From Pseudomonadota bacterium (GTDB taxonomy: Bacteria; Pseudomonadota; Alphaproteobacteria; Sphingomonadales; Sphingomonadaceae), in contig JAZKBG010000005.1 in NCBI GenBank assembly GCA_040388765.1, forward strand, positions 17,045-81,044: a stretch of DNA of 64,000 nt, in the 5' to 3' direction. The translations under genes and the position numbers were made by a program. Below the pieces are notes generated by a model that searched no databases, was not told the DNA's origin, and saw only the letters and a list, made by a program, of their open reading frames with translations. This document shows positions 603-19,632 of this stretch, in pieces. Positions within the stretch are counted from its first letter, which is position 1; every line of letters begins with the position of its first letter.

Positions 603-609
603 CTTGACC

Positions 610-2169: not shown

Positions 2170-3386
2170 CAGCGCTTTCGGCTTGCTACCTGGCGGATTC
2201 TGTCGAGTTCTCCCCTGGCCGAGCGCGTATCGACGGTCACGTCAACCGACATACCTGGGATAAGGAGCCGCCGAACCTCAGGAGGGGCATCTATTGCGAT
2301 GCGAACAGGCACGCGCTGAACAATCTTCGTAAAGTTGCCGGTCGCATTCTGCGGTGGCAGAACGGAGAATTGGGCGCCTGTGCCGGGGGCAAAGCTGGCG
2401 ACGCGGCCTGTCACTTCAATGCCGGAGAGCGCATCGATTTCGACTTTCACCGACTGTCCGACACGCATAAGGCCGAGCTGCGTTTCCTTGAAATTTGCCT
2501 CGATAAAAAGTCGGTCTGTGGGCACCAGTGTCATCATCCGCATGCCGGGTTGCACAAACTGCCCGACGCGGACTGAAAGATCGCCGACGCGGCCATCGAT
2601 TGCCGCCCTGAGCACGGTCGATTCCACATTCACGCGCGCGGCGGAAAGTTGCGCGCGAGCAGTTTGAGCCTGCGACTGAGCCTGCCGAACCTGCGCGTTG
2701 AGCGTGCCGACCCTCCGCTGTGCGCCCAAGAGTCCAGCCTGGGCTACATTGACCCGCTCGCGCGCTTGTCGCGCTTGCGTCTGAAGCTGAGCGAGCCGCT
2801 CGCGAGGCTCAGCGCCAGTCGCTGCCAGTGGCTGATACCGCAGTACCTGCTGGGATACGAAAGCCGCTTCATCGCGCGCGGAGTAGAGTTGGGCCTGCGC
2901 CTGAGAAATTGCCGCCTGCTGCTCGGCAATCTGCGCTCGGCTAGTGTCGCCCGCAGCGTTCGCAGTTGCGATCTGGCTTGTTATCTGAGCGGTTTGCGAC
3001 CGATACTCGCGAGGGTCGAGTTCAGCCAGGGGCTGCCCTCGTCTGACAGACTGGTTCTCGGTGACGTATACACGCTCGACATATCCGGAAATCTTCGGGG
3101 CGATGACCACGGAATCCGCCGCGATATATGCGTTGTCAGTGGCCTGCATAAATTGGCCGCGGTTCTGATGATCGAAATACCAGATAAGGCCGATAGCGAC
3201 GAGCACGATCGCGCCGACCAGAAGAGCGAGCCTGACGCGCGGCGATTTGAGGGGGGAGCTCCGGACGTCGTCGGTGTCCGCAGTTTCCACCGTAGCGGCG
3301 GCCGACTCGTCCGGCATAATAACTTCCATTCCAGCTTGATGGCTTATCGTTCCGTTGCCGCACTCTAGACCATTAGGCAACCGCAT
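2169..3386 (-). CDS. HlyD/EmrA-family periplasmic adaptor (membrane fusion protein)
   Basis: 405-aa ORF with one N-terminal TM (LALLVGAIVLVAIGLIWYF), a long Q/A-rich coiled coil and a C-terminal beta-barrel region (NFTKIVQRVPVRI), typical of EmrA. The true start may be the internal ATG at 3317 (MPDES...) or 3329 rather than 3386. Confidence 0.85.
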   Translation of the reverse strand: MRLPNGLECGNGTISHQAGMEVIMPDESAAATVETADTDDVRSSPLKSPRVRLALLVGAIVLVAIGLIWYFDHQNRGQFMQATDNAYIAADSVVIAPKISGYVERVYVTENQSVRRGQPLAELDPREYRSQTAQITSQIATANAAGDTSRAQIAEQQAAISQAQAQLYSARDEAAFVSQQVLRYQPLAATGAEPRERLAQLQTQARQARERVNVAQAGLLGAQRRVGTLNAQVRQAQSQAQTARAQLSAARVNVESTVLRAAIDGRVGDLSVRVGQFVQPGMRMMTLVPTDRLFIEANFKETQLGLMRVGQSVKVEIDALSGIEVTGRVASFAPGTGAQFSVLPPQNATGNFTKIVQRVPVRIAIDAPPEVRRLLIPGMSVDVTVDTRSARGELDRIRQVASRKR

Positions 3387-3406
3387 ATCATATGCAACCT
3401 CAGGAA
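3384..3406. repeat. Left copy of a perfect 23-bp direct repeat CATATCATATGCAACCTCAGGAA
   Basis: Identical 23-mer at 19610-19632 in the same orientation. Its first 11 nt form the palindrome CATAT-C-ATATG. It lies in the emrA upstream region. Confidence 0.9.
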
Positions 3407-3592
3407 TGACATGTTGCTGCTGTTACCCATCTGCCCGCCACCCCCGGCGTTGATACTCCGCCCATGTTGGCGCTTGGCACCAGTATTTTGATGACGCGTA
3501 GTGCGCATTCGTATTCGCACGGGGGGCCATCAGTTGGACTTGGTCCTCCCCCCAGAATATCCTATGGACGCTTAGCCTTCTGCCGGACGCAA

Positions 3593-4624: not shown

Positions 4625-4686
4625 CCCTCATTGGTACGTGCTGCAGCAGGGTCACGCAATCGCCCTCGTCTTCTTGAAACAATTCT

Positions 4687-4700
4687 TGAAATGCATTTCA
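4687..4700. promoter_or_regulatory. Candidate LacI-type operator, perfect 14-bp palindrome TGAAATGCATTTCA
   Basis: Perfect inverted repeat in the 128-bp lacI/TonB-receptor divergent intergenic region. It resembles the TGnAAnCGnTTnCA architecture of LacI-family operators, though the centre is TGCA rather than CG. Confidence 0.45.
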
Positions 4701-4752
4701 GAAATGGGTAGCGAAACGAGATTGAGTCGGCAAAGTCCGCACTGGGAGAGGG

Positions 4753-7269
4753 TTGATGGCAAAAAAAAGGAATCACGGAGTGATGCTGGCGTTTGGCACA
4801 GCAATGATTGCGCTGATCGGGACGACACCGGCGATCGCGCAAATCGTTCCCCTCGACTCTCCGCAACCCGACCCGAACCTAACCACTGCGGACGGCAGCG
4901 GGATCGATGAAATCGTCGTTACCGCCCGCCGTGAATCGGAACGAGCCCAGGATGTCCCAATCTCGCTGACCGCCTTCTCGCAGGACACGATCCGCGCGAA
5001 GGGAATCAATTCGGCGACCGACCTGCAGAACTTTACACCGTCGCTGACGGTGCTTGGCGATGTTAGTCGCAACCAGGAGACCTACGCGATCCGTGGCCTC
5101 GGGGGCAACGGCGGCGCGGGTACGGGAAGCGGTCCGGGCGTGGTCGCCTATTTCGCCGAAGTTCCGACCAGCGCAAGCGGGCCCGGTAACTTTTACGACC
5201 TTGCATCGCTGCAGGTTTTGAAGGGCCCTCAGGGTACGCTATTCGGGAGGAACACCACAGGAGGAGCGGTTCTGCTTGAGCCGGCCCATCCGAAAATGAA
5301 TATCGTCGAAGGGTATGCAGATGTCACCGTCGGCAATCTAAAACGGCGCGGTGCGCAAGGCGCGCTCAATATTCCGATCATCGACGATGTCTTGGCAATC
5401 CGAGTGGCCGGCCAGTTCGACAAGCGCGATGGCTATGTCCGCGATGCCGTCACCGGCGTCGATTATCTCAACCGCAACAACTTCTCCCTCCGGCTGGGCA
5501 TCCAGTTCAATCCCAGCGACAGCATCAGTAGCTATACCGCAGTCAACTATATCGACGTCGAAGAACATGGCGGCGGCAGCATCCTGCTCGCGGTGCGTCC
5601 GGGCAGCGGCTATGCGGCGTTGCTGCAACCCTATCTGACTCAGCAACGGGCCTGGGGTCCGCGCAAGACCGCGCTTAGCACCCCGACCTTCGAGAAGGCG
5701 AAAAGATTCCTCGCGCTCAACAATACCGAGTTCAGGGTCAACGACGCGTTCACGATCAAGAACGTGTTCAGCTATGCCCGCACCCGGTCGACCTCGGCGA
5801 CCGATCGCGATTCAACTCTGTTGCCGATCGCCGACCTGCTCGGCGCTTTCCCCGGTAGCTACAACAATAACCTGCGCACGATCACAGAAGAATTGCAGCT
5901 TCGGTACGACAGCGGTCCGTTCCGGCTGCAAGTCGGCGGCTTTTACCTGACCGAGAAGAGCCCGCAGCCTCTCACTTTCCTGACGCGCAATCCGCTACAG
6001 GCTGGCGGAATCCTTGGAGGCGGCCCGATCATCCTGCCACCTGCGCTGCAGACGGTGCTCGGCGTCAACACCCCACTGCTTCCGGCCCTCAACGTCCAGC
6101 CCGACGCGTCTGTCTATGCCCGCAGCAAGGCGCTCTATGCGCAGGCGCAGTACAAGCTCACACCGGAATTGACCGCGACCGCAGGCTTTCGCTGGACGTG
6201 GGACAAGTTCGGCGGTGACATCACGTCCTATCAGGACGCATCGAGCTACCAGGTGTTCAATCAGCTGGCCGCGCTCGGGGTGGTGACCCAGTCCCAAGCC
6301 GCGCAGGTCATCGGCCTGAACGCCAATCTGTGCGTCTTCGACGCCTTCCAGGCAGTGGCGGCGGGCGGCTTCCCGACGCTCAAATATCCGAACTGCACCA
6401 AGCCAAGCTTTAACGGAAAGAGCGAAGGGCCAACGTGGCAGTTCGGGCTCGACTGGCAGGCCGATACCGATACGCTCGTCTACGCGGTTTCGCGGCGCGG
6501 ATATAAATCGGGCGCCAACAATCCGATCGTGACCCTGTTCCTCGGCAACAGCTATCCGCTGGCGGCGGTCAAGCCGGAGAAGGTGACCGACGCCGAAATC
6601 GGTGTGAAGCGTGACTGGGACCTGGGCGGCGGAGTGCGGGCCCGCACCAACATCGCGGCCTTCTACACCTGGTTCAACGACGTCCAGGTGATCCAGAGGG
6701 CAGCGATCGCCGGAGCAGACATCTTGGCCAACGCACAAAAGGCGCGCGTGGTCGGCGTGGAGTTCGAAGGGCTGCTGATGCCCAGCAAGTGGATCACGCT
6801 GGGCGGCACCTATTCCTACAACGACGCCAAATATGTCGATTACACAACGATCGCGATTCCCGCGATCCCGTCGGCGCTGACTCCGGCGCAGCCTTCGCGC
6901 AATCTGACGGGCACGCCGTTCACCTTCGTGGCCAAGCACAAGTTCAGCCTCGACGCCCGCATCGGTATGCCAATTCCGGAAAGCGAAGGCGATCTGAGCC
7001 TGCGTGCGGCCTACACCTGGCAGTCGCGCCAGCGCGTAGCATCTGACCCACAACCGTTCGACACGATCGCGCCCTATGGCTTGCTGAACCTGCGAGTCGA
7101 GTGGAACGGTATCCACGGGACGCCGCTCGATGCAGCTGTTTTCGGTACGAACGTCCTCGACAAGGAATATCGAGTGACGGCCAACACCGGCTACAACAAT
7201 TCGGGGTTTTCGAACTCGATCTACGGCGAGCCCGCGCAATATGGCGTTCAGCTCCGCTATCGTTTTTAG
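4753..7269 (+). CDS. TonB-dependent outer-membrane receptor
   Basis: 838 aa. Signal peptide ending AIAQ, TonB-box/plug region DEIVVTARRESERAQDVPISLTAF, terminal aromatic residue (LRYRF). The likely start is ATG 4756, after GGGAGAGGG. Confidence 0.9.
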   Translation: MMAKKRNHGVMLAFGTAMIALIGTTPAIAQIVPLDSPQPDPNLTTADGSGIDEIVVTARRESERAQDVPISLTAFSQDTIRAKGINSATDLQNFTPSLTVLGDVSRNQETYAIRGLGGNGGAGTGSGPGVVAYFAEVPTSASGPGNFYDLASLQVLKGPQGTLFGRNTTGGAVLLEPAHPKMNIVEGYADVTVGNLKRRGAQGALNIPIIDDVLAIRVAGQFDKRDGYVRDAVTGVDYLNRNNFSLRLGIQFNPSDSISSYTAVNYIDVEEHGGGSILLAVRPGSGYAALLQPYLTQQRAWGPRKTALSTPTFEKAKRFLALNNTEFRVNDAFTIKNVFSYARTRSTSATDRDSTLLPIADLLGAFPGSYNNNLRTITEELQLRYDSGPFRLQVGGFYLTEKSPQPLTFLTRNPLQAGGILGGGPIILPPALQTVLGVNTPLLPALNVQPDASVYARSKALYAQAQYKLTPELTATAGFRWTWDKFGGDITSYQDASSYQVFNQLAALGVVTQSQAAQVIGLNANLCVFDAFQAVAAGGFPTLKYPNCTKPSFNGKSEGPTWQFGLDWQADTDTLVYAVSRRGYKSGANNPIVTLFLGNSYPLAAVKPEKVTDAEIGVKRDWDLGGGVRARTNIAAFYTWFNDVQVIQRAAIAGADILANAQKARVVGVEFEGLLMPSKWITLGGTYSYNDAKYVDYTTIAIPAIPSALTPAQPSRNLTGTPFTFVAKHKFSLDARIGMPIPESEGDLSLRAAYTWQSRQRVASDPQPFDTIAPYGLLNLRVEWNGIHGTPLDAAVFGTNVLDKEYRVTANTGYNNSGFSNSIYGEPAQYGVQLRYRF

Positions 7270-7278
7270 GATCACGCC

Positions 7279-8646
7279 ATGAGGATTGTCCACGCCGCCT
7301 TGCCGATGGTGTTATTCGCGGGGGGGGTCTTCGCGCAGACTGCGCCCTCGGTGCCCGCTGTGTCATCGGCCGCCAAGGCGTTTACGCCTGACTCTGCGCA
7401 ACTCGTGCTGATCGAAAAAGCTCGTGCCGGCGGCGCGCGCGATATCGTGGCAACTGCTGGCCCGAACGGCGGCATGATCCTTAACGGCACGATTGAAAGC
7501 CGACAATTTGTGCTCGCATTGCCGGCCCGGTGGACTGGCGAAATGGTCTTGTTTGGGCAAGGCTACGCGACCCCGGGCTCGACGGCGACAGTTCCTTCCG
7601 ATCCGATCGCCAAGGATCCCGGCGGCGGCACGTTCCGCCATGTGTATGACAAGGGCATCGCCTCCGGGATCGCCGCGTTCGACAAGAATGGCGTCGCGAC
7701 CGAAAGTGGTACCCGCAATGCGATGCGGTTGCGGGCACTTGCCGTGAAGATGGGTGCTCGCCGCTTCTATGCCCTTGGCGGATCAATGGGAGGCAGCATC
7801 GTGATGTCGCTCATCGAGCGCCATCCCAACGCCTTTTCGGGCGCGGTATCGATGTGCGGAATTACCGAAGGCTGGCTGCCACTGGTCCAGCAGCTGGCGG
7901 ACCTGCGTGGCGCCTACGATATTCTCACTGCCGGCACGCCATATGCTATTCCAGGGGACAAAGACCTCACGCGGTCAGCATTGCCGGTAATCCCGCCCGT
8001 GGGTAGCGCCGTTGCGGGCGATGCATTTCGCGAACAGCAGAAAATGAAGCTGATCATGCCGGTGCTGGCGCTGTTCCAAGCGGCAAAGAAGGATCCACAA
8101 GGCCGTGAGGCGAGAATCATTCGCCAGATCGCGGCGGTCGGTGGCTTTCCGCCCGACGCCGCAGCGATCGGTGCGCCACTTTATTCGGCGGCATTGGGGA
8201 TGGATGACATCGTGGCAACGATGGGCGGCATACCGATTGGAAATCGCGGTCGCATCTTTGCGCCCCCCGAGATGACGGACGCCGAAGCCGCCGACTTCAA
8301 TCGCAGGATGCAGCGCTACGATGCCAATCCCAGGGCTCTCGCCTATGCCCGTTCCTGGCATCAATCGACCGGACGCTTCCGAGTGCCACTGGTGACGGTG
8401 CATCAAACGCTGGACTCGCTGGTGCCGTTCTCGCAGTCCGAGGCTCTCGGGCGCCTTGTTGCCAAGGCCGGAAACGGCGTCAGAATTGCGCAATATGCCG
8501 TGCCGCCGACGCGATTTCCGCTACCCGGCGGGTTGGACGGATATTCCCATTGCGGATTTACGCCGGCACAGAATATCGCCGCGTTCGAAGCGATGCGCGA
8601 CTGGGTCTTGACCGGTAAGCGCCCCGGGCCGGAGGCAGTGCGATGA
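7279..8646 (+). CDS. Secreted alpha/beta-hydrolase-like protein of unknown specificity (paralogue of 15906-17306)
   Basis: 455 aa. Sec-type signal (MRIVHAALPMVLFAGGVFAQ), nucleophile elbow GGSMGG, then a long insertion before candidate Asp (HQTLDSLVP) and His (GYSHCGF) residues. I could not place it in a named family. Confidence 0.6.
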   Translation: MRIVHAALPMVLFAGGVFAQTAPSVPAVSSAAKAFTPDSAQLVLIEKARAGGARDIVATAGPNGGMILNGTIESRQFVLALPARWTGEMVLFGQGYATPGSTATVPSDPIAKDPGGGTFRHVYDKGIASGIAAFDKNGVATESGTRNAMRLRALAVKMGARRFYALGGSMGGSIVMSLIERHPNAFSGAVSMCGITEGWLPLVQQLADLRGAYDILTAGTPYAIPGDKDLTRSALPVIPPVGSAVAGDAFREQQKMKLIMPVLALFQAAKKDPQGREARIIRQIAAVGGFPPDAAAIGAPLYSAALGMDDIVATMGGIPIGNRGRIFAPPEMTDAEAADFNRRMQRYDANPRALAYARSWHQSTGRFRVPLVTVHQTLDSLVPFSQSEALGRLVAKAGNGVRIAQYAVPPTRFPLPGGLDGYSHCGFTPAQNIAAFEAMRDWVLTGKRPGPEAVR

Positions 8647-9947
8647 GCGGCGCAATCGGGCGGCGCGGCGTACTCGGCATTGGCACCGCTGCGGTGGTGA
8701 CCGCGGCCTTGCCGGCACAGGCGGCGCGGCGGTCGCCGTTTCTGTGGGGCGCGGCGACGGCGGGCCATCAGATCGAAGGCAACAACGTCAACGCCGATAT
8801 ATGGCTGCTGGAGCAGGTCAAGCCGACCGTGTTCGCGGAGCCGTCGGGCGACGCGTGTGACAGCCTCAATCGCTGGCGCGAAGACGTTGCGATCGTCAAG
8901 GCGCTCGGGCTGAACTGCTATCGCTTCTCCCTGGAATGGTCGCGGATCGAGCCTGCCCCGGGGCAGTTCAGCCAGGCCTATCTGGATCATTATGCCCGCA
9001 TCGTCGACCATTGCCGCGATCTCGGCCTCGCGCCGATCGTCACGTTCAACCACTTCACCTGCCCGCGCTGGTTCGCCGCCGCCGGTGGCTGGGAGAACAA
9101 GGACGCGCCGGATCTGTTTGCGCGCTATTGCGACAAGGTGGCTCGGGCGATGGGATCGGGCATCAGCCATGCCCTGACCTTCAACGAGCCGAACCTGGCA
9201 CTTGGCGGACGCTGGGCCGCGAGTCCGCCACCACCGGCATTCATGGACAAGATGGCGGCCTGTATCGCAGCGGCGGCAAAAGCCAGCGGATCGGATCGCT
9301 TTTCGCTGCTCAATGGTGGCGATCCCGCGCCGATGATCCCGGGCGTCACCGCCGCGCACGTAAAGGGACGCGAGGCGATTCGCGCCGTGCGGAGCGATCT
9401 GCCGATCGGCATGAGCCTGGCGATTCCTGACAATGTCCCGGTCGGTGCCGATAGCGGGATCGAGCGCAAGCGTGCCGAGATTTACGGGCCGTTCTTTGCA
9501 GTGATCGACAAGGACGATTTCGTCGGCGTCCAGACCTACGGACAGGCCTTTGTCGGTCGGGACCGGGACGTGGCGGCGCCCGCTGGCTCCGCGCAAGGCC
9601 CGGATGGCAAGGAATGGTTTCCGGCCGCGATCGGCAATGTCCTGCGCTATGTGCACAAGGCGACCGGAAAGCCGGTCATGGTCACTGAAAATGGCGTGGA
9701 TGCGGCGGACGATGCCAAGCGCCAGCGCTTCATCACCGAGGCGATTGCGTCTGTCCAGGCAGCGGCGCGAGACGGGGTGCCGGTACTCGGCTATATCCAT
9801 TGGTCGCTGCTCGACAATTTCGAATGGTTCTCGGGCTATGGCCCCAAGTTCGGCCTGGTCTCGGTCGATCGCACCACCTTCAAGCGCACGGTCAAGTCCA
9901 GCGCCCGCTTGCTCGGCCGGATTGCGAAGGCGGGCGGTGTGCGGTGA
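8643..9947 (+). CDS. GH1 family beta-glucosidase/beta-galactosidase, exported (Tat-type signal)
   Basis: 434 aa. Twin-arginine leader IGRRGVLGIGTAAVVTAALPAQA, then WGAATAGHQIEGNN, the acid/base motif TFNEPN and the nucleophile motif VTENG. ATGA overlap with the upstream gene. Confidence 0.88.
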   Translation: MSGAIGRRGVLGIGTAAVVTAALPAQAARRSPFLWGAATAGHQIEGNNVNADIWLLEQVKPTVFAEPSGDACDSLNRWREDVAIVKALGLNCYRFSLEWSRIEPAPGQFSQAYLDHYARIVDHCRDLGLAPIVTFNHFTCPRWFAAAGGWENKDAPDLFARYCDKVARAMGSGISHALTFNEPNLALGGRWAASPPPPAFMDKMAACIAAAAKASGSDRFSLLNGGDPAPMIPGVTAAHVKGREAIRAVRSDLPIGMSLAIPDNVPVGADSGIERKRAEIYGPFFAVIDKDDFVGVQTYGQAFVGRDRDVAAPAGSAQGPDGKEWFPAAIGNVLRYVHKATGKPVMVTENGVDAADDAKRQRFITEAIASVQAAARDGVPVLGYIHWSLLDNFEWFSGYGPKFGLVSVDRTTFKRTVKSSARLLGRIAKAGGVR

Positions 9948-12123: not shown

Positions 12124-13169
12124 TCCGAAAGGCGTGGACGATTTTTGCGGGCGCCTGTGCGGTTTTGGCGCCGGCGCATGCGCAAGAGGTGGGGCCGGTG
12201 CAAGTCCTTGGCTTTACGCTGCCGACATCGAACCAGCTGAGTCCCGAGGCTCGGATCGTGCTGGCGCGTATGAACGACGCCAAGGCGCCCGATCTCAAAG
12301 GCGACATCGCGAAGTCGCGCGCCTTTTACGGAAAATGGAATGACGACCGCCTGGTCGAGGTGCGGCGTCATTTCGCGACGCGCGAGGCGCGCGTGCAGCT
12401 GGGCGGCGTCATCGTCGACATCGTGACGCCCACAGCCGGCGTGCCGCGCGCCAATGCCGGGCGGGTGCTGATAAACGTTCATGGCGGTGCGTTCATATGG
12501 GGCGGCGGCAGCGGTGCGCTGGTCGAAGCGATTCCCATTGCGGCAACCATGGGCGTAAAGGTCGTCACCGTCGATTATCGGCTCGCGCCCGAACACAAAT
12601 ATCCGGCGGCGTCGGAAGACGTGACCGCAGTCTATCGCGCACTGCTCAAAGAATATCGCCCAGAGAATATCGGCATCTATGGCTGTTCCGCCGGCGGGAT
12701 AATCACCGCACAGGCGGTGTCCTGGATCCGCCGCCAAGGCCTGCCCCGGCCTGGTGCGATTGGCACGCTATGTGGCACCGGCGCGCCGTATAGCGGCGAT
12801 AGCGCCTATCTTTCGGGACCGTTGGCAGGGGGTTCGCCGATGATCAGCGGCCCGTTGCCCGACATCCTGCCGACCGCCTATATGGCGGGCGTCCCGGCCA
12901 GCGACGCAGCCGCCTATCCGCTTGCCGACAAAGCCGAGACCCGGACCTTCCCGCCGACGCTGTTGCTGGCGGGCGGCCGCGATTTCGCAGTGAGTGGCCT
13001 GACCCTGGCGCATCGCCGGCTTACCGCGGCGGGCGTGCCGTCGGAACTCTATCTGTTCGACGGGCTGCCGCATGCTTTCTTTATGTGGCCGGATATGCCG
13101 GAATCGATCGAGACCTATGGCTTGATCGCACGCTTCTTCGATCATCATCTCGGCAGGCGTGCGCGCTGA
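12120..13169 (+). CDS. Alpha/beta hydrolase fold-3 carboxylesterase/lipase (HSL-like), exported
   Basis: 349 aa. Signal MIRKAWTIFAGACAVLAPAHAQ, HGGAF and GCSAGG motifs. ATGA overlap with the upstream esterase. Confidence 0.85.
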   Translation: MIRKAWTIFAGACAVLAPAHAQEVGPVQVLGFTLPTSNQLSPEARIVLARMNDAKAPDLKGDIAKSRAFYGKWNDDRLVEVRRHFATREARVQLGGVIVDIVTPTAGVPRANAGRVLINVHGGAFIWGGGSGALVEAIPIAATMGVKVVTVDYRLAPEHKYPAASEDVTAVYRALLKEYRPENIGIYGCSAGGIITAQAVSWIRRQGLPRPGAIGTLCGTGAPYSGDSAYLSGPLAGGSPMISGPLPDILPTAYMAGVPASDAAAYPLADKAETRTFPPTLLLAGGRDFAVSGLTLAHRRLTAAGVPSELYLFDGLPHAFFMWPDMPESIETYGLIARFFDHHLGRRAR

Positions 13170-14395
13170 TGCGGATACGAACCATCGTCGCGCTGGCGCT
13201 GACCTACGCTCTGCTCGGCATCCTGATGAACAGTGTCGGCGTGGTGATCCTGCAATCGATCCGCCATCTGAACGCGACCAAGGTGATGGGATCGAGCCTG
13301 GAGGCCTGCAAGGACCTGTCGGTCGTCGCGGCATCCTTCCTCCTGGCAACCCGCGTCCCTGCGTTCGGATACCGGCGGGCGCTGATCGCGGTGCTGGCGG
13401 TGATGGCCGGCGCTTGCCTGGCCGCTTCGTTCGCCAGCACCTTCCTTGCCATGCAATTGCTGTTCGTCGTGACCGGCCTGAATTTCGGAGTGGCGAAGAT
13501 CGCGACCTATTCGACGATCGGCCTGCTCGCCCGCGACCCGGCCGACCATGCCAGCATCACTGGCACGATCGAGGGCGTATTCATGGTTGGCGTGCTCGCC
13601 GGCGCCTGGCTGTTCGGATGGTTCATCGGCCCGGATGACCAGAGCGGTGCCTGGCTGCACGTCTATTGGCTGCTCGCCGGGTTGTGCGCCGTAGCGGCGC
13701 TGATGTGGCTGACGTTGCGTCTGGACGAGCGCGAAGCGGTGGCGGATGAGACGGATGCGCCTGCCGGATGGCGTGCGATGCTAGGGCTTGCCCTGCTCCC
13801 GGCGACGGTGGGCGTGCTTGCCGGGCTGTTCTTCTATGTCCTGATCGAACAGGGCATCGGCACCTGGCTGCCGACGTTCAACAGCGAGGTGCTTCATCTC
13901 CCGGCGGCGATGAGCGTGCAGATGTCGAGCATCTTCCTCGCCGCGCTCGCTCTGGGCAGGCTGGCGTCGGGCATCGTGCTTCGCCGGATTTCCTGGCTAC
14001 CGGTGCTGCTCGGCTGCCTGGCCGCAATCGCTATCATCGTTGTAGCAACGCTGCCGCTGGCGCATGGCGTGGAGCCGCGCGCGGAAAATGGCTGGGCCAA
14101 TACTCCCCTCGCCGCCTATCTCTTCCCGCTGCTCGGCCTGTTCCTGGCACCGATCTATCCCACGATATGCTCGGTGGCACTCAGCGCATTGCCGCGCCAC
14201 CGCCATCCGCCGATGGTAGGGCTGATCGTGATCTTCTCAGCCCTTGGCGGGACGATCGGCTCGTTCATCACCGGCATGCTGTTCCAGCATCTGCCCGGCG
14301 CCCTTGCCTTCTACTTCGTGCTGGTGCCGATCGGGCTGATCGCGCTGCTGCTTCCCGCGATCCGCGCGCGCCAGGTGCGGGGGCTGGCCGCATGA
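13169..14395 (+). CDS. MFS transporter (probable sugar/glycoside permease)
   Basis: Start placed at ATG 13169 (TGATG overlap), MRIRTIVALALTYALLG. About 12 predicted hydrophobic spans. The upstream 28 codons of the tracked ORF overlap the esterase gene. Confidence 0.8.
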   Translation: MRIRTIVALALTYALLGILMNSVGVVILQSIRHLNATKVMGSSLEACKDLSVVAASFLLATRVPAFGYRRALIAVLAVMAGACLAASFASTFLAMQLLFVVTGLNFGVAKIATYSTIGLLARDPADHASITGTIEGVFMVGVLAGAWLFGWFIGPDDQSGAWLHVYWLLAGLCAVAALMWLTLRLDEREAVADETDAPAGWRAMLGLALLPATVGVLAGLFFYVLIEQGIGTWLPTFNSEVLHLPAAMSVQMSSIFLAALALGRLASGIVLRRISWLPVLLGCLAAIAIIVVATLPLAHGVEPRAENGWANTPLAAYLFPLLGLFLAPIYPTICSVALSALPRHRHPPMVGLIVIFSALGGTIGSFITGMLFQHLPGALAFYFVLVPIGLIALLLPAIRARQVRGLAA

Positions 14396-15906
14396 ACCGG
14401 CCCAGTTCCCCGGCCCAGCTGTTTGGCCCGCTATTCGCCGCGGTGCAGGAGCGCGGCCTTTTCGCGGACTCCAAGACATTCGCTGATGCCATCCCGCGCT
14501 ACCCCGCAGGCCAGATAATGTCCGACTGGCAATCCGAGACACCGGACACGGACGCAGCGTTGCGTGCTTTCGTCGCATCCCATTTCGACGTGCCTGCCGA
14601 GAATGTGCCGCCGCTGCTGGATGCCCGACCGCTTGCGCCGCACATCTGCGCGCTCTGGGATGAACTTACTCGCACCGCCACCAGCGCGCCGGGTTCCTCC
14701 GAGATCGACCTACCGAAGCCTTTCGTAGTGCCCGGCGGGCGCTTTCGCGAGCTCTATTATTGGGACAGCTATTTCACGATGCTGGGCCTAGCGCGATCTG
14801 GCCGGCAGGAGTTGATCGAAGACATGATCGTCGATTTCGGCAGTCTACTCGATCGCTTTGGGTGCATCCCCAACGGGACGCGCAGCTACTATCTCACCCG
14901 TTCGCACCCGCCATTCTTCTACTTGATGGCCGGCTTATCGCGCGACCGCTCCGAAACGGCGCGGCGGTCCCGCCTCCGGTGGATGGAAATCGAGCACGCT
15001 TTCTGGATGGACGGAGCAGAGGCTCTGCCACCCGACGCTCAGACTCGGCGAGTGGTGCGGATGGCAGACGGTTCGCTACTGAACCGCTATTGGGACGACA
15101 GCGACGCTCCGCGTGACGAGTCTTGGCGCGAAGACATTGATCTGGCGGCGTCGGCAATGGGCCGAAAGCCCAGCGATCTGTGGAGGGATATTCGAGCCTC
15201 AGCGGAAAGCGGTTGGGATTTCAGCTCGCGGTGGCTGGCGGATGGGGCCTCGCTGGCGACGATACGGACGACACGCATTGTGCCGATTGACCTTAATTGC
15301 CTGCTATGCGGCCTCGAACAGGCGATTTCGCGGGAGGCGGCACTGATCGGCCAGGAGAGGAAGGCCGCTCGATTTTCAGCTTATGCGTGGTCGCGTAACG
15401 CGGCAATTGCATCCCATCTGTGGGACGACTCACGGGGCCATTACTCCGACTTCGACCTGGATTCAGCGTTAGTTTGCGATAGGCTGACCGGGGCCGCCGC
15501 CTTTCCACTGTTCGTTGGCATAGCCGACGAAACGCGCGCTCTGCACACCGTTGCGGCGCTTACGAAGCTGCTTCGCCCCGGCGGCCTAGTGACGACCCCT
15601 AGCACGACCGGTGAGCAATGGGACGCGCCGAACGGTTGGGCCCCGCTGCAGTGGATCGCGGTGGCGGGGTTGCGACGTTATGGTGAGAATACCTTGGCTG
15701 ACGAGATCGCCAATCGCTGGCTGGCGATGGTCGAGGATCAGTATCGCGCGACCGGTCAGCTCCTCGAAAAATATGATGTCGAGCAGCTCGGTGTCGGCAC
15801 AGGCGGCGAATATGTCACTGAAACCGGCTTTGGCTGGACCAATGGGGTGGCGCTAGAATTGCTCGCAACCCGCAGCATTACCCAAAATCAGTCGCAGAAA
15901 GCGTAA
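14392..15906 (+). CDS. Trehalase (GH37), cytoplasmic type
   Basis: The trehalase signatures PGGRFRELYYWDSYFTMLGL and QWDAPNGWAPLQW are both present. Start placed at ATG 14392 (ATGA overlap with the MFS stop). No signal peptide. The 208 upstream codons of the tracked 712-aa ORF overlap the MFS gene out of frame. Confidence 0.9.
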   Translation: MNRPSSPAQLFGPLFAAVQERGLFADSKTFADAIPRYPAGQIMSDWQSETPDTDAALRAFVASHFDVPAENVPPLLDARPLAPHICALWDELTRTATSAPGSSEIDLPKPFVVPGGRFRELYYWDSYFTMLGLARSGRQELIEDMIVDFGSLLDRFGCIPNGTRSYYLTRSHPPFFYLMAGLSRDRSETARRSRLRWMEIEHAFWMDGAEALPPDAQTRRVVRMADGSLLNRYWDDSDAPRDESWREDIDLAASAMGRKPSDLWRDIRASAESGWDFSSRWLADGASLATIRTTRIVPIDLNCLLCGLEQAISREAALIGQERKAARFSAYAWSRNAAIASHLWDDSRGHYSDFDLDSALVCDRLTGAAAFPLFVGIADETRALHTVAALTKLLRPGGLVTTPSTTGEQWDAPNGWAPLQWIAVAGLRRYGENTLADEIANRWLAMVEDQYRATGQLLEKYDVEQLGVGTGGEYVTETGFGWTNGVALELLATRSITQNQSQKA

Positions 15907-17306
15907 TGGAGAATGGAGAGTCCAAGATGAGCACCAAAACCAAAAATATCGCACGCTGGTCCGGCATCTTGCTGCTCACGACCGTAGCGATTGGATCTAC
16001 TCCCCTGCGGGCCCTCACGCTGCAGGCACAATCAGCGGCCCTTACCATCGCGCAAACTGTCCTGGTTGCCAAGGCCAAGACACTGGGCGCGACCGATGTC
16101 ACAACGCGCCCCGCGCCCAAGGGCGGCTTCACCTTGGGGGGCAAGCTGGAGGGCGATCAGTTCGCGGTCTCGTTCCCTGCCAATTGGAACGGCAAAGCAT
16201 TGCTGTTTGCGCATGGCTATTCGACGCCCGGATCGCCCATCGCCGTTTCCGAAGATCCGACGGCGAAGGGCACTGGCGCGGGCGGCATCCTTGCCGCGGC
16301 CTATGAAGATGGTGTCGCCGCCGGCCACTCTGCCTATGACAAAGCCGGCATGGGCGTGGAGACCGCCACGGTGAACACGCTGCGCCTGCGCAACTTCCTC
16401 GCCAAGCTGGGCGCCAAGCGCGTCTATATCAGTGGCGGATCAATGGGCGGCAATATCGTCCTTTCGCTGATCGAGCAGCATCCGCGCGCCTTCGCCGGCG
16501 GGCTTGCAGCCTGCGGCGTTACCAATGGCTGGGAATCGCTGTTCGGGCAGCTGATCGACATGCGCGTCACCTATAATTACCTGACGCGCGGGACACCCTA
16601 TGCGCTGCCAGGGGACAAGGATGCGACGCACACTGCGCTGCCGACCCTGCCGCCTTCCGGTGACGCCACCAATCCCGAAGCATATCGGTGGCAGCAGATC
16701 GGCAGGATCGCCACTCCAGTGCTCGCGTTGTTCAAGGCGGCCGCCGCCAATCCAAATGGCCCGGAGGCCAGGATCGCCCGTCAGGTCGCGGCAGTGGGCG
16801 GCTTCGAGGCCGAGCCTGCCTCAGTCGCATATCCACTGGTCACGGCAACGCTCGGTGCGGACGATCTGGTGCAAACCCTGGGCGGCCAGATCTATGGCAA
16901 TGTCGGCAAGGCCTATGTGGTGCCGGAAATGACCGCCGCCGAGTTGGCGTCGTTCAACCAGGGGGTGCAACGCATCCATGCCGACAAGGCGGCGGTGGCG
17001 AATGCGCGCCGTTGGCATCAGGCGACCGGCCGTTTCCAGGTGCCCTTGGTTACCATCCACAACCAAATCGACTCGCTCGTCCCCTATTCGCAAAATGAAG
17101 CGCTGGGGCGGATCGTTCGCGCCGCCGGCAATGAGCGGCGCTTGGTTCGCTTCACCGTGCCTGCGGTGAAGGCGCCGCTTCCGATCGGCGGCGTCGAGGG
17201 CTATACCCATTGCGGGTTCAGCACCGAGCAAGGGGCCGCGGCCTGGCGTGCGCTGTACAGCTGGGCGGAAACCGGCAAGCGGCCGGCGCCCGACGCGGTA
17301 AAATGA
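15906..17306 (+). CDS. Secreted alpha/beta-hydrolase-like protein, paralogue of 7279-8646
   Basis: 466 aa, collinear with the 455-aa protein (GGSMGGNIVLSLIEQHPRAF, HNQIDSLVPYSQNEALGR, GYTHCGF). Alternative start at ATG 15927 after GGAGAG. Confidence 0.6.
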   Translation: MENGESKMSTKTKNIARWSGILLLTTVAIGSTPLRALTLQAQSAALTIAQTVLVAKAKTLGATDVTTRPAPKGGFTLGGKLEGDQFAVSFPANWNGKALLFAHGYSTPGSPIAVSEDPTAKGTGAGGILAAAYEDGVAAGHSAYDKAGMGVETATVNTLRLRNFLAKLGAKRVYISGGSMGGNIVLSLIEQHPRAFAGGLAACGVTNGWESLFGQLIDMRVTYNYLTRGTPYALPGDKDATHTALPTLPPSGDATNPEAYRWQQIGRIATPVLALFKAAAANPNGPEARIARQVAAVGGFEAEPASVAYPLVTATLGADDLVQTLGGQIYGNVGKAYVVPEMTAAELASFNQGVQRIHADKAAVANARRWHQATGRFQVPLVTIHNQIDSLVPYSQNEALGRIVRAAGNERRLVRFTVPAVKAPLPIGGVEGYTHCGFSTEQGAAAWRALYSWAETGKRPAPDAVK

Positions 17307-19396
17307 TAGTGCGTCTGCTGGCGGTATTGCGGCGTGCGCTGGCGGCCGGGCTCCTGCTCGCCGACAGCGTTCCCGCCTCCGCAAACGCTGTCAGTACAAC
17401 CGATCCCTTCACGGTCGCCGCGCCGGCCATCGGCGCATCCTGGTATCCGGAGCAATGGCCGGAGGCGCAATGGGATCGTGATCTCGCATTGATGCGGCGC
17501 GCGAATTTCACGGTCGTCCGCGTCGGCGAGTTTGCCTGGTCACGGTTGGAGCCGAGCGACAATCGCTTCGACTTTGCCTGGCTGGACAAGGCGATTGCGG
17601 CAGCCGCCCGGCATGGCATCCGCGTGGTGATCGGCACGCCGACCGCCGCGCCGCCGATTTGGCTGACAGAGGCGCATCCCGATACGTTGCGCGTCAACGA
17701 GGATGGCAGCGTCGAGGGGCATGGTGAGCGGCGGCAATTCTCCTTCGCCAGCGCCACCTATCGCCGCTACGCCGCGCGCATAGCTGGCGAGCTGGCGCGC
17801 CGATACGGGCATAGTCCAAATGTCGTCGGGTGGCAGATCGACAATGAGATTGGCGTCCCGTCTTTCGATCGCGAAACAAAGGTGCTCTGGGCCGTGTGGC
17901 TGGAGCGGCGCTACGGCACTATCGCAGCGCTCAACCGGCGCTGGACCACCGAATATTGGAGCCAGCGCTACGAGCGCTTCGACCAAATCCCGCTGAAGTC
18001 GCGCGGACCGCAAAACCCAGCGCTGCTGCTCGACTTCCGCCGCTTCGCAAGCGCGGTGTGGGCGGATTATGTCGGCGAACAGGCCGCGGCGATCCGCACC
18101 CATGCCGATCCCCGCCAGTTCGTCGCGACCAACTCGACGGCGTGGAACAACAATTTCGACCAGTTCCTCGTTCATCGCGGGCTCGATATCGCGGCGTGGG
18201 ACGATTATGTGCCGAATGGCCGGCCCGACTGGGCAGCCAATGCGCTGCACCACGATGTGGTGCGCGGATATAAGCGCCGCAATTTCTGGGTGATGGAAGC
18301 GCAGCCCGGCCGCGTCGACTGGGCTGCGGTCAACCGGTCGCTGGAGCCCGGCCAGGTGCGCGAAGTCGCCTGGCAGACGATTGGACACGGTGGCGATGCC
18401 GTGATCTACTGGCAATGGCGCAGCGCGCTGAACGGCCAGGAGCAGCATCACGGCACGCTGGTTGGCCCGGATGGCGAGCCGATGCCGATCTTCGACGAGA
18501 TCGCCCGCACAGGCTCCGAATTTGCCGCCGCGGCGCCCTATCTTGCCGGCACCAGCGTGCCACAGGCCAAAGTCGCGCTGATCTATTCGCAGGAAAGCCG
18601 CTGGGCGACCGAGAATGAGCGGCACCATCGCGACTATGATCCTGTCGCCGTGTTGAAGGACTGGTACCGCCCTTTTGCGGCGGCAGGCCAGGCCATCGAC
18701 GTGGTCGCGCCCGACACCGATCTGGCGGGATACCGGATGGTGCTGGCGCCCAATCTGAACCTGCTGGATGCGGCGACCGCGGCACGGCTGGCCGCCTATG
18801 TCCGGGCCGGCGGCCAATTGGTGCTGGGTCCGCGATCCGGCATGAAGGACGGGGATAACGGGCTCTGGACCCAGCGCCAGCCCGGCCACTTGTCTGCACT
18901 GCTCGGTGGCCGCGTCGACTATTATTATCCGCTCGACGAACCCGCATCGATCGCCGGACAGATCGGCGATGCGAAGGTAACGATCTGGGCTGAGGTGCTT
19001 GCGCCCCGTGCCAGCGATGTGGAGATTGTGGCGCGTTATACGAGCGGCAGCGGCTGGCTGGTCGATCGACCCGCGATCCTGTCCCGCGGCATCGGCAAGG
19101 GCAGGATCACCTATGTCGGGGCAATACTGGATGGCGAGGGGCAACGGCGCCTGACGGATTGGCTGACTGCTCGCGCCACGCTGCCGCCACCGGTCATCGC
19201 GCCGCAGCCTGGCGTCGAGATCAGCGAGCGCCGCGATGCGCGCACGCGATACCTGGTGATGATCAATCACAACGACACGCCTGTGACTCTGGCGTTGCCC
19301 ACCACCGGAAAGCCAATCCTCGGCGACCTAAGGGGAAACGTGCTGCGCGGACACGGCGTCGCATTGTGGGCGCTCCCCGACAACATGGGCCGTTAA
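17303..19396 (+). CDS. GH42 family beta-galactosidase with N-terminal signal-like leader
   Basis: SWYPEQWPEAQWDRDLALMRRANFTVVRVGEFAWSRLEP and WQIDNE are typical of the GH42 TIM barrel. Start placed at ATG 17303 (ATGA overlap), giving MIVRLLAVLRRALAAGLLLADSVPASANA. Confidence 0.85.
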   Translation: MIVRLLAVLRRALAAGLLLADSVPASANAVSTTDPFTVAAPAIGASWYPEQWPEAQWDRDLALMRRANFTVVRVGEFAWSRLEPSDNRFDFAWLDKAIAAAARHGIRVVIGTPTAAPPIWLTEAHPDTLRVNEDGSVEGHGERRQFSFASATYRRYAARIAGELARRYGHSPNVVGWQIDNEIGVPSFDRETKVLWAVWLERRYGTIAALNRRWTTEYWSQRYERFDQIPLKSRGPQNPALLLDFRRFASAVWADYVGEQAAAIRTHADPRQFVATNSTAWNNNFDQFLVHRGLDIAAWDDYVPNGRPDWAANALHHDVVRGYKRRNFWVMEAQPGRVDWAAVNRSLEPGQVREVAWQTIGHGGDAVIYWQWRSALNGQEQHHGTLVGPDGEPMPIFDEIARTGSEFAAAAPYLAGTSVPQAKVALIYSQESRWATENERHHRDYDPVAVLKDWYRPFAAAGQAIDVVAPDTDLAGYRMVLAPNLNLLDAATAARLAAYVRAGGQLVLGPRSGMKDGDNGLWTQRQPGHLSALLGGRVDYYYPLDEPASIAGQIGDAKVTIWAEVLAPRASDVEIVARYTSGSGWLVDRPAILSRGIGKGRITYVGAILDGEGQRRLTDWLTARATLPPPVIAPQPGVEISERRDARTRYLVMINHNDTPVTLALPTTGKPILGDLRGNVLRGHGVALWALPDNMGR

Positions 19397-19609
19397 GCAA
19401 TACACCTCCGATCCAGCCATCGCCGTAGTTGCGATTGCACCATTATGGTGTCAGGCGGAAGTATCAAGCGATCTTCACGCGTCGCTGGTCACGGCACCAA
19501 AAGTATCATCCTCACCTTGGCATATCCGCATTTATGGCGTGATAGGGTCGGCATGGGCGATGCCGGGCAAGGCATCCCTATTGCCATTTGGATCCGTATC
19601 CAGCAAGGA

Positions 19610-19632
19610 CATATCATATGCAACCTCAGGAA
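19610..19632. repeat. Right copy of the perfect 23-bp direct repeat CATATCATATGCAACCTCAGGAA
   Basis: Identical to 3384-3406. It contains the probable marR ATG (19618-19620), preceded by AAGGA. Confidence 0.9.

What the first reader, a model, noticed from the sequence alone, without database searches (positions are those of the whole stretch)
3384..19632. Perfect 23-bp direct repeat brackets the entire 16.2-kb LacI/TonB/glycosidase island and duplicates the marR start codon
CATATCATATGCAACCTCAGGAA occurs at 3384-3406 and again at 19610-19632 in the same orientation. I saw no third copy by eye. In the right copy, the internal ATG (19618) is the probable MarR start (AAGGA 8 nt upstream, MQPQEERL...). 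In the left copy the same ATG opens only MQPQE-stop, and it sits in the upstream region of the divergent emrA-emrB-OMF operon. Deleting 3407-19632 would give a classic divergent marR/efflux-pump arrangement. The LacI gene and the 10-gene operon therefore look like an insertion into the marR-emrA intergenic region, yet the island carries no integrase or transposase. An alternative is that the 23-mer is a MarR operator shared by both promoters, since its first 11 nt form the palindrome CATAT-C-ATATG. The identity continues 12 nt past the palindrome into marR codons 2-5, which favours physical duplication.
Basis: partly seen in the sequence, partly recalled or inferred. Interest (0 to 1): 0.62.

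Follow-up and report, generated by a model that had tools for sequence, protein, structure and literature searches.

The report
Old promoter relic brackets swapped-in sugar genes
The 23-base repeat is real, but it was not made when the sugar-gene cluster arrived: it is a conserved relic of the marR control region, kept beside the efflux-pump genes, and related bacteria have the same relic with other genes inserted or have nothing inserted.

Summary
CATATCATATGCAACCTCAGGAA lies at 3384-3406 and 19610-19632, and these are the only two copies in the 3.7-Mb genome.

The insertion reading is supported. At least ten relatives have emrA facing marR directly, with about 75 bp between the start codons. 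That matches the spacing from emrA to the left copy's ATG here.

The repeat is probably not a target-site duplication made by this 16.2-kb island:
- It belongs to a longer duplicated control region of about 52 bp (TTGCC-N16/17-GCAA-N3-CATATNATATGGAACCTCAGGAA).
- Sphingomonas sp. AR_OL41, MAG BWSM_79 and several metagenome lineages carry the same left relic and right copy around a different cargo, a 4-kb mlaEFD operon.
- Across five lineages the left relic is 68-86% conserved, while the DNA on either side is at random level (25-32%). It therefore looks like a functional non-coding element, most likely the MarR operator/promoter of emrAB.
- The 11-bp palindrome occurs nowhere else in the genome.

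The island is a conserved 11-gene LacI/TonB-receptor/glycosidase cluster found elsewhere in other Sphingomonas genomes. It has no mobility genes.

The perfect 23/23 identity, which includes a base change private to this genome in both copies, points to recent homogenisation.

This is an ordinary kind of event with a tidy evolutionary story. Interest is modest.

The parts
3..677 (-). Outer-membrane efflux protein gene (OMF), cut by the window end
   Evidence: Pfam OEP
610..2169 (-). emrB-like DHA2 MFS efflux permease
   Evidence: Pfam MFS_1. NCBIfam TIGR00711 scores 358 bits, above its cut-off of 230
2169..3317 (-). emrA-like membrane-fusion adaptor. The likely start is the ATG at 3317, not the longer ORF reaching 3386
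   Evidence: Pfam HlyD_3/HlyD_D23. Orthologue alignments begin near this start, and the upstream extension is not conserved
3355..3406 (+). Left relic (L): a complete copy of the emrA|marR control region, TTGCCG-N16-GGCAA-CCG-CATATCATATG plus marR codons 1-5. It contains the left 23-mer (3384-3406) and the mini-ORF MQPQE-stop (3392-3409)
   Evidence: Its ATG lies 75 bp from the emrA ATG, against 77 bp measured in the empty site of G057. It is conserved 68-86% among five L-bearing lineages, while both flanks are at 25-32%
3407..3592 (.). Unique spacer between the relic and the lacI stop codon. The left junction of the cargo lies at or inside it
   Evidence: No similarity to any locus or to the rest of the genome
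3593..4624 (-). LacI-family regulator of the cluster
   Evidence: Pfam LacI + Peripla_BP_3. It is syntenic with the cluster in G388, G075, G157 and G306
4753..19396 (+). Ten-gene operon: TonB-dependent receptor, alpha/beta hydrolase, two GH1 genes, two Abhydrolase_3 esterases, MFS transporter, trehalase-like GH37, alpha/beta hydrolase, GH42
   Evidence: Pfam. The whole cluster is collinear in four other Sphingomonas genomes at 54-86% aa identity, in other genomic contexts
19397..19580 (.). Spacer between the GH42 stop codon and the marR promoter copy. The right junction of the cargo lies somewhere inside it
   Evidence: Unique in the genome. Similarity to the mlaE-marR spacers of relatives is not significant
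19581..19632 (+). Right copy (R): the working marR control region, TTGCCA-N17-CAGCAAGGA-CATATCATATG plus marR codons 1-5. It contains the right 23-mer (19610-19632)
   Evidence: CAGCAAGGACATATCATATG is shared with the R copies of AR_OL41, BWSM_79 and G418, and with one or two changes in L077 and L044
19618..20112 (+). marR (164 aa)
   Evidence: Pfam MarR/MarR_2. Orthologues are 65-83% identical
20087..22728 (+). ABC1/UbiB-like kinase gene and an MlaD-domain gene, co-directional with marR
   Evidence: Pfam ABC1 and MlaD. The marR-ABC1(-mlaD) order is conserved in relatives

Best explanation
Ancestral state (shown). The ancestral arrangement is a divergent pair, emrA-emrB-OMF to the left and marR-ABC1-mlaD to the right. 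They share a control region of about 75 bp. It consists of a TTGCC...GGCAA inverted repeat followed by the palindrome CATATNATATG, which overlaps the marR start codon.

Origin of the two copies (inferred). In one lineage DNA was placed between the two operons in a way that left two copies of the control region:
- A relic, L, stayed beside emrA. It runs from TTGCC through marR codon 4-5 and then breaks off.
- A full copy, R, stayed in front of marR.
This is most simply the product of recombination that was homologous on the marR side and illegitimate on the other. No integrase is involved.

Cargo turnover (states shown; history inferred). The DNA between L and R has since changed: an mlaEFD-aux operon in AR_OL41 and BWSM_79, the same plus a DUF4142 gene in another lineage, and in this genome a 16.2-kb LacI-regulated TonB-receptor/glycosidase/esterase cluster. 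That cluster is conserved as a unit elsewhere in other Sphingomonas genomes and is closest to the copy in a less related species.

Why L persists (conservation shown; function inferred). L is still the regulatory site of the pump operon. MarR made from the R side can bind both L and R, so pump control survived the separation. The conservation of L is shown; MarR binding and the cis-regulatory role are inferred from it.

Why the 23-mers are identical (inferred). The perfect 23/23 identity here includes the R-type centre base and a G-to-C change, private to this genome, present in both copies. This is best read as recent homogenisation of L by R, by short-patch gene conversion or an equivalent process. 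It is not the scar of the island's arrival.
For: Empty sites:
- emrA and marR are adjacent in G057, G190, G089 and G299, in S. rhizophila and a Qipengyuania MAG, and in L052, L054, L057/L081 and L070.
- The emrA ATG to marR ATG distance is 77 bp in G057, against 75 bp to L's ATG here.

Same L/R pair around other cargo:
- AR_OL41 (L003/L035), BWSM_79 (L034/L075), and L044, L069 and L094. The cargo is annotated as MlaE, ABC_tran, MlaD and ABC_trans_aux, with or without a DUF4142 gene.

Extent of the duplicate:
- L and R share TTGCC at the same offset. They match at 21/34 positions of the 34 nt upstream of the 23-mer in AR_OL41 and 19/34 in BWSM_79.

Conservation of L among five lineages:
- 32% in the emrA-proximal 35 nt, 68% in the TTGCC..GGCAA block, 86% in the 23-mer and 25% beyond it.

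Uniqueness:
- CATATNATATG occurs only at the two sites in 3.7 Mb.

Identity of L and R 23-mers within one genome:
- 23/23 here, against 21, 20 and 18 of 23 in other genomes. Every other sequence collected has ATGGAA; only this genome has ATGCAA, and it has it in both copies.

The island:
- No mobility gene, tRNA or known RNA.
- It is a conserved syntenic cluster in G388 (75-86% aa for all but est1 at 65% and the trehalase-like gene at 62%), G075, G157 (59-73%) and G306. None of these has a 23-mer-like sequence at its ends.
- UvrB ranks the genomes the other way round: G157 89%, G388 86%.
Against: - Single-gene trees of emrA, emrB, marR and ABC1 are unresolved. They do not show that the L-bearing genomes form one clade, and in the marR tree this genome pairs weakly with an empty-site contig, M052.
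- The L-class and R-class upstream blocks are each about as close to some empty-site alleles as to each other's class. G000_L matches M052_E at 23/40 and G157_L at 25/40; G000_R matches M081_E at 24/40 and the R copies at 20-22/40. Independent insertions into different alleles are therefore not excluded.
- No remnant of the mla operon was found in this genome. The spacers next to L and R are not significantly similar to those of mla-type genomes.
- Gene conversion across only 23 bp of homology is inefficient.
- MarR binding is not tested. No convincing sigma-70 promoter was predicted at either copy.
- Some relatives were found with a pattern search that required the motif. This inflates apparent conservation of the core 19 nt in those rows. 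Relatives found by protein search still keep ATGGAACCTCA.
Confidence: 0.6

Rival explanations
1. The island inserted by itself into an empty emrA|marR site in this lineage, and the event duplicated exactly 23 bp (staggered breaks, or integration of a circle at a short homology). On this model the L/R pairs in other genomes are separate events at a recombination-prone site.
For: - The identity is a perfect 23/23, with sharp loss of similarity on both outer sides.
- Both copies carry the genome-private ATGCAA, as a fresh duplication would.
- Gene trees do not tie this genome to the mla-type genomes.
- The closest marR known (82.7%, L052) is at an empty site.
Against: - The 9 bp directly left of the right copy (CAGCAAGGA), and a TTGCCA 29 bp upstream of it, match the marR promoters of other genomes. 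The island's end would have had to carry a marR promoter.
- L in this genome ends within 3 nt of where L ends in BWSM_79 and the L044 and L051 lineages.
- No transposase, integrase, inverted terminal repeats or tRNA are present.
- To my knowledge a 23-bp target duplication is longer than those of known transposon families.
- The cluster has no such sequence at its ends in four other genomes.
Confidence: 0.2
2. No duplication history is needed to explain the identity. The two 23-mers are two operators of one regulator, held identical by selection. The G-to-C change arose in parallel because protein and operators co-evolve, and in L it extends the palindrome to GCATATCATATGC.
For: - L is conserved as a non-coding element in five lineages.
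- The palindrome is unique to the two sites.
- ATGGAACCTCA is invariant at synonymous positions in relatives found by protein search.
- E. coli marO also contains TTGCC...GGCAA half-sites (PMC10799119; a resemblance only).
Against: - L reproduces the whole control region in the same order and spacing, plus marR codons 2-5. It sits exactly where marR starts in empty-site genomes. That is homology, not convergence.
- Selection can explain why L is kept, but not how it arose.
- The extended palindrome exists only in L, not in R.
Confidence: 0.15
3. Site-specific integration. The conserved element is an att-like site used by a recombinase encoded elsewhere, and the cargo units are mobilised in trans.
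For: - Three or four different contents are found at one site, always bounded by the same sequence.
- Direct repeats flank the cargo.
Against: - No recombinase lies in or near any of the cargo units.
- The cargo consists of ordinary chromosomal operons.
- The repeats are imperfect and of unequal length between genomes.
- No excision joint was seen in four metagenomes that hold the organism, although only low-depth contigs were available.
Confidence: 0.05

Closest known systems
MarR-family repressor divergent from an EmrAB-type efflux operon (E. coli emrRAB / MprA; mar operon operator marO)
   Same: - A MarR-domain regulator sits next to an HlyD-adaptor / DHA2-MFS / OMF pump.
- A palindromic sequence lies in the shared control region.
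- TTGCC/GGCAA half-sites are also present in E. coli marO (PMC10799119 primer).
   Different: - The regulator is not an MprA equivalog (27 bits against a cut-off of 157).
- In E. coli, as I recall, emrR is the first gene of the pump operon; here marR is co-transcribed with an ABC1/UbiB-like kinase gene and an MlaD gene.
- The half-sites are 16 nt apart rather than 2-3.
- In this genome regulator and pump are 16 kb apart, and each keeps its own copy of the site.
Homology-facilitated illegitimate recombination and sequential displacement of gene cassettes (for example Vibrio cholerae T6SS effector/immunity arrays, PMC5361080; E. coli conjugation, PMC3240628)
   Same: - Integrase-free replacement or insertion of cargo next to a conserved anchor sequence.
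- It leaves truncated relics of the resident gene's end.
- Different cargo is found at one locus in different strains.
   Different: - The mechanism is inferred here, not demonstrated.
- The relic here is a promoter/operator plus 5 codons, and it appears to be kept by selection for regulation. It is not an orphan gene.
Genomic islands flanked by direct repeats (att sites of integrative elements, target-site duplications of transposons)
   Same: A 16-kb block absent from relatives and flanked by a perfect direct repeat.
   Different: - No integrase, transposase, tRNA target or terminal inverted repeats.
- The repeat pair also exists around other cargo.
- The repeat is part of a longer, diverged duplication.
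LacI-regulated TonB-dependent glycoside utilisation clusters of Sphingomonadaceae and other Proteobacteria
   Same: - A LacI gene divergent from an operon that starts with a TonB-dependent receptor gene and carries an inner-membrane MFS transporter gene and several glycoside hydrolase genes.
- It is conserved as a unit in at least 5 species.
   Different: The substrate is unknown. The mix of four hydrolase/esterase genes with GH1, GH37-like and GH42 enzymes is unusual. This was not studied here.

Membership tests
Mobile genomic island / transposon with target-site or att duplication | Direct repeats flanking the inserted block | tested here: met
   23/23 identity at 3384-3406 and 19610-19632, unique in the genome
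Mobile genomic island / transposon with target-site or att duplication | A mobility gene (integrase, transposase or recombinase) or terminal inverted repeats in the block | tested here: not met
   All 11 genes carry metabolic, transport or regulator domains. The repeat scan shows no inverted repeat pairing the two ends
Mobile genomic island / transposon with target-site or att duplication | The repeat pair is created by this insertion, so genomes without the island have a single copy | tested here: not met
   AR_OL41, BWSM_79, L044 and L094 lack the island at this site yet have both L and R, around an mla operon; L069 shows L beside the same cargo but its contig ends before R
Mobile genomic island / transposon with target-site or att duplication | Integration next to a tRNA/tmRNA gene or another known att target | tested here: not met
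   No tRNA or tmRNA in 1-30000
MarR-family repressor controlling a divergent efflux operon | Winged-helix MarR domain | tested here: met
   PF01047 at 33 bits and PF12802 at 30 bits, both above their cut-offs
MarR-family repressor controlling a divergent efflux operon | Regulator gene adjacent and divergent to the pump genes | tested here: met
   Met in at least 10 relatives. In this genome they are separated by 16.2 kb
MarR-family repressor controlling a divergent efflux operon | (Pseudo)palindromic operator in the target promoters, bound by the regulator | tested here: inconclusive
   A conserved inverted repeat and an 11-bp palindrome are present at both promoters and nowhere else in the genome. 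Binding cannot be tested with these tools
MarR-family repressor controlling a divergent efflux operon | Equivalog of E. coli MprA/EmrR | tested here: not met
   NF008122 at 27 bits against a cut-off of 157
EmrAB-OMF type tripartite MFS efflux pump | DHA2 14-TMS MFS permease, HlyD-type adaptor and outer-membrane factor in one operon | tested here: met
   TIGR00711 at 358 bits, above its cut-off of 230. HlyD_3/HlyD_D23 and OEP domains are present. EmrA scores below the EmrA/EmrK subfamily cut-off (249 against 391)
LacI/TonB-dependent-receptor glycoside utilisation cluster | LacI regulator divergent from an operon with a TonB-dependent receptor, a transporter and glycoside hydrolases, conserved as a unit | tested here: met
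   collinear in G388, G075, G157 and G306
Product of homology-facilitated illegitimate recombination | One junction inside homologous sequence, the other at a non-homologous point that leaves a truncated copy of the resident sequence | not testable with these tools
   The structure is compatible: an L relic truncated after marR codon 4-5, and R intact. No donor or intermediate is available

The most novel reading that the evidence does not exclude
The conserved ~52-bp emrA|marR control element may act as an integrase-free docking site. On this reading, L-cargo-R units loop out as circles by recombination between L and R. They then re-enter empty sites of other strains through the same short conserved sequence. 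A transcription-factor operator would thus double as a portable recombination site that shuffles whole operons (mla, DUF4142, the LacI sugar cluster) in and out of one chromosomal position across Sphingomonadaceae.
Probability: 0.08. Interest if true: 0.6.

Novelty: new member of a known kind. Interest (0 to 1): 0.3.

Why it matters
- **A caution for island calling.** A perfect direct repeat around an island need not be the scar of that island's arrival. Here the repeat is an older, selectively kept regulatory duplicate.
- **A testable prediction.** The locus is a natural experiment in how a repressor/target pair survives being split. The pump keeps a private copy of the operator, which includes five now meaningless codons of the repressor gene. 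MarR should therefore bind both copies, and emrAB should stay under its control from 16 kb away.
- **A candidate operator.** It points to a specific ~52-bp sequence as the operator/promoter of a widespread sphingomonad marR-UbiB-like-MlaD / EmrAB module of unknown function.
- **Scope.** It does not reveal a new kind of mobile element or mechanism.

Tried and rejected
- **Longer homology at the island ends.** I looked for similarity between the spacers 3407-3592 and 19397-19580 and the corresponding spacers of mla-type genomes, to prove replacement of the mla operon.
  - A 3-sequence nhmmer profile put its best hit in the window at 19507-19587, collinear, but with E=2.
  - A 5-sequence profile without the TTGCC part did not find it.
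  - Pairwise local alignments with dinucleotide shuffles gave p = 0.014-0.86, and on the left side 0.26-0.46.
  - Result: inconclusive, and I dropped it as evidence.
- **Gene trees.** Trees of emrA, emrB, marR and ABC1 were built to test whether L-bearing genomes form a clade. The ingroup is unresolved.
- **Repeat-like sequence at cluster ends elsewhere.** I searched for the 23-mer, allowing up to 6 mismatches, and for its palindrome at the ends of the cluster in G388, G075, G157 and G306. There was none.
- **Empty-site or excision joints.** I looked in four metagenome runs holding the organism. Only short, low-depth contigs were available, and no 3406-to-19633 joint was seen.
- **Closer relatives.** The MarR protein search found only the same strain or a near-identical strain (island present), then a jump to 83% identity or less. 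Exact look-up of the LacI product found nothing.
- **Promoter and terminator scans.** Nothing useful at either copy.
- **GC content as evidence for a foreign island.** Rejected. The island (63.5%) is nearer the genome mean (67.0%) than its flanks (59-61%).
- **Cargo insertion exactly at the end of L.** The spacers after L cannot be aligned between lineages, so this could not be tested.

Full report
**1. The observation**

CATATCATATGCAACCTCAGGAA occurs at 3384-3406 and 19610-19632 on the + strand with no mismatch. No further copy appears at up to 3 mismatches, and shuffles of the window give none. The whole assembly (3,700,691 bp in 35 contigs; the window is C5:17045-81044) holds only these two copies. 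Ungapped similarity extends leftwards to 27/30, and both copies have TTGCC exactly 29 nt upstream.

- OMF 3-677(-), emrB-like DHA2 permease 610-2169(-), emrA-like adaptor 2169-3317(-).
- lacI 3593-4624(-).
- A ten-gene + strand operon, 4753-19396: TonB-dependent receptor, alpha/beta hydrolase, GH1, GH1, two Abhydrolase_3 esterases, MFS, trehalase-like, alpha/beta hydrolase, GH42.
- marR 19618-20112, ABC1/UbiB-like kinase 20087-21718, MlaD protein 21790-22728.

No integrase, transposase, tRNA or Rfam RNA lies in 1-30000.

Both junctions are reproduced in independent assemblies. These are two Logan contigs identical to the window, an NCBI metagenome contig whose first 7.5 kb, spanning the R junction, are identical to the window (99.75% over 9.9 kb), and a 377-bp contig from an unrelated wastewater run spanning 3092-3468.

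**2. Empty sites exist**

Protein searches of the genus find emrA directly facing marR-ABC1 in G057, G190, G089 and G299 (emrA 78-82% and marR 66-76% identical). More distant genomes show the same: G014, G017, G013 and G181. A pattern scan adds S. rhizophila KACC 19189, a Qipengyuania MAG and a Sphingobium MAG. Metagenome contigs L052 (the closest marR known, 82.7%), L054, L057/L081, L070 and others also have empty sites.

In G057 the two start codons are 77 bp apart. In the window the emrA ATG (3317) is 75 bp from the ATG inside the left copy. So the left copy sits exactly where marR begins in an uninterrupted locus.

**3. The repeat is older and longer than this island**

The closest genome by flanking genes, G157 (Sphingomonas sp. 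AR_OL41; emrA 85%, ABC1 84%), has 4 kb between emrA and marR. That DNA encodes MlaE, an ABC ATPase, MlaD and an auxiliary lipoprotein, not the sugar cluster. It is bracketed by the same pair of sequences:
- next to emrA, TTGCCGCATTAACGAATATTCGGCAATGGCATATGATATGGAACCTCACAAA;
- next to marR, TTGTCACCCCATCGAAGATTCAGCAAGGACATATCATATGGAACCTCAGGAA.

The same structure is present in MAG BWSM_79 (G417) and in metagenome contigs L035, L073 and L075. L044, L069 and L094 have it with an extra 2.1 kb (a DUF4142 gene) between the relic and the mla operon. L051 and L066 carry the L relic of that lineage, but their contigs end before any cargo gene. A short contig of a "Porphyrobacter" MAG (G418) shows the marR side of it.

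In every case the emrA-side copy (L) carries the whole control region, TTGCC-N16-GGCAA-N3-CATATNATATGGAACCTCAG. It loses all similarity to marR within a few bases after codon 4-5. The marR-side copy (R) has the form TTGCCA-N17-CAGCAAGGACATATCATATGGAACCTCAGGA in all these genomes and in the window (19581-19632).

Three points follow:
- (a) The duplicated unit is about 52 bp. L and R match at 21/34 of the 34 nt upstream of the 23-mer in AR_OL41 and 19/34 in BWSM_79, but only 12/34 in the window.
- (b) The bases immediately left of the right 23-mer are marR promoter, not island. The island's right junction therefore lies somewhere in 19397-19580.
- (c) The L/R pair is not specific to this island.

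**4. L is under selection**

I aligned the five distinct L copies on the ATG. Mean pairwise identity is 32% in the 35 nt next to emrA, 68% in the TTGCC..GGCAA block, 86% in the 23-mer and 25% in the next 29 nt. The flanks are at random level, so the conserved ~57-nt block is a phylogenetic footprint in non-coding DNA.

The peptides encoded after the relic's ATG differ completely after four residues, so the constraint is not on a peptide. In relatives found by protein search, without any motif requirement, ATGGAACCTCA is invariant, including synonymous positions.

The palindrome CATATNATATG occurs at the two sites and nowhere else in 3.7 Mb.

The most economical reading is that the block is the cis-regulatory site of the pump operon and of marR: an operator, possibly with promoter elements. 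A pump-side copy had to be retained when the two operons were separated. MarR-family proteins bind (pseudo)palindromes, and E. coli marO also contains TTGCC..GGCAA half-sites (primer sequence in PMC10799119). That is a resemblance only, and binding here is untested. Consensus scans found no convincing sigma-70 promoter.

**5. Why 23/23 here**

Within one genome, the L and R 23-mers agree at 21/23 (BWSM_79), 20/23 (AR_OL41) and 18/23 (L044), but 23/23 in the window.

The window's L has the centre base C typical of R copies; other L copies have T or G. Both L and R carry ATGCAA, whereas every other sequence collected has ATGGAA. By contrast, the 40 nt upstream of the two copies in the window are the least similar pair of all (12/40).

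Old upstream divergence combined with perfect identity in the core, including a private substitution, is best explained by recent copying of R onto L. This could be short-patch gene conversion or an equivalent template switch. Parallel selection on two operators is a weaker alternative. It does not explain why the island's right end would carry a marR promoter of the R class, or why L ends where it ends in other lineages.

**6. What the island is and where it came from**

The lacI gene and ten-gene operon form a conserved, collinear cluster in G388, G075, G157 (on the same contig as its marR, 34 kb away) and G306. These copies sit in other contexts and have no repeat-like sequence at their ends.

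Identity to the window is highest with G388: 75-86% for nine of the eleven proteins (est1 65%, trehalase-like 62%), against 59-73% with G157. UvrB ranks them the other way, G157 89% and G388 86%. This single-marker incongruence suggests that the cluster reached this position by transfer or recombination rather than by vertical descent from a G157-like arrangement.

Composition does not mark the island as foreign. The genome is 67.0% GC and the island 63.5%. The pump (60.8%) and marR (59.0%) modules lie in the lowest 1-2% of the genome.

This genome has no orthologue of the mla operon found between L and R elsewhere, only a 42% paralogue. I could not show remnants of that operon at the island's edges.

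**7. History and mechanism**

The favoured scenario (confidence about 0.6) has four steps:
- One ancestral event separated emrA from marR and left L and R. Its form is a resident control region plus five codons, truncated at a non-homologous junction beside an intact copy. That is what homology-facilitated illegitimate recombination produces (PMC3240628). Sequential displacement of cassettes by that route is known elsewhere (PMC5361080).
- The content between L and R was later exchanged or extended in different lineages.
- In this lineage the content is the sugar cluster.
- L was recently homogenised by R.

Three things are shown: the empty sites, the shared L/R structure around different cargo, and the conservation of L. 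Three are inferred: the single origin, the recombination mechanism and MarR binding.

Single-gene trees are star-like and cannot confirm a single origin. The L and R upstream classes each resemble some empty-site alleles about as much as their own class. An independent insertion in this lineage therefore keeps about 0.2.

**8. Verdict**

It is right that this is an insertion between marR and emrA, that the repeat is a physical duplicate and that there is no mobility gene. It is wrong that the 23-mer is the island's own bracket, and its two alternatives (duplication or operator) are not exclusive.

The locus is a clear example of a regulatory-region relic retained after operon separation, with cargo turnover at one site. 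It is a new instance of known processes rather than a new kind of element.

Noticed in passing
window 1-3317 and 19618-22728: The pump module (60.8% GC) and the marR-ABC1-mlaD module (59.0%) are in the lowest 1-2% of 3.3-kb windows of a 67.0% GC genome. The island between them (63.5%) is closer to the mean. The whole neighbourhood, up to the IS cluster near 27-30 kb, may itself be acquired DNA.
   Followed up: partly
window 19618-22728; L003, L034, L044: marR-ABC1/UbiB-like kinase(-MlaD) is a conserved module. In several lineages a second MCE/Mla transporter operon (mlaE-mlaF-mlaD-aux) sits divergently next to marR. This suggests a functional link between this MarR, the atypical kinase, lipid/MCE transport and the EmrAB-type pump.
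   Followed up: partly
L009 (G174:C62) 5157-10557: In G174 the same marR-ABC1-mlaD module, with an E-type control region, faces a different HlyD/MFS pump that is only 35% identical to emrA/emrB. The pump side of the junction has been exchanged too.
   Followed up: no
window 4753-19396; L011-L014: The 11-gene LacI/TonB-receptor cluster is collinear in at least five Sphingomonas species. It contains three tandem or dispersed paralogue pairs (two GH1, two Abhydrolase_3, two 455/466-aa alpha/beta hydrolases). The substrate is unknown.
   Followed up: partly
window 27289-29022 and 57079-57399: A near-identical strain (GCA_040384165.1 contig, L097) departs from the window at 27289, where it carries an rve-family transposase gene. 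Copies about 90% identical to that IS lie at 28571-29022 and 57079-57399 of the window. IS content therefore differs between close strains.
   Followed up: no
L007 (G014) 2200-2290; L008 (G181): In more distant relatives (MarR 42-45% identical) the emrA|marR spacer has a different pair of inverted repeats, CTTGCA-N6-TGCAAG and TGAGG-GT-CCTCA, just before the marR ATG. These may be the deeper ancestral form of the operator.
   Followed up: no
L044 5781-7928: One lineage has an extra 2.1 kb (a DUF4142 protein gene and a hypothetical gene, no mobility gene) between the L relic and the mla operon. This is another cargo state at the same position.
   Followed up: partly
window 30210-60084: Downstream of the IS cluster lies a set of aromatic-compound catabolism genes: HpaB-type hydroxylase, Rieske ring-hydroxylating dioxygenase alpha subunit, acetaldehyde dehydrogenase, ferredoxin reductase, P450, an AMP-binding enzyme and an indolepyruvate/POR-like oxidoreductase.
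   Followed up: no
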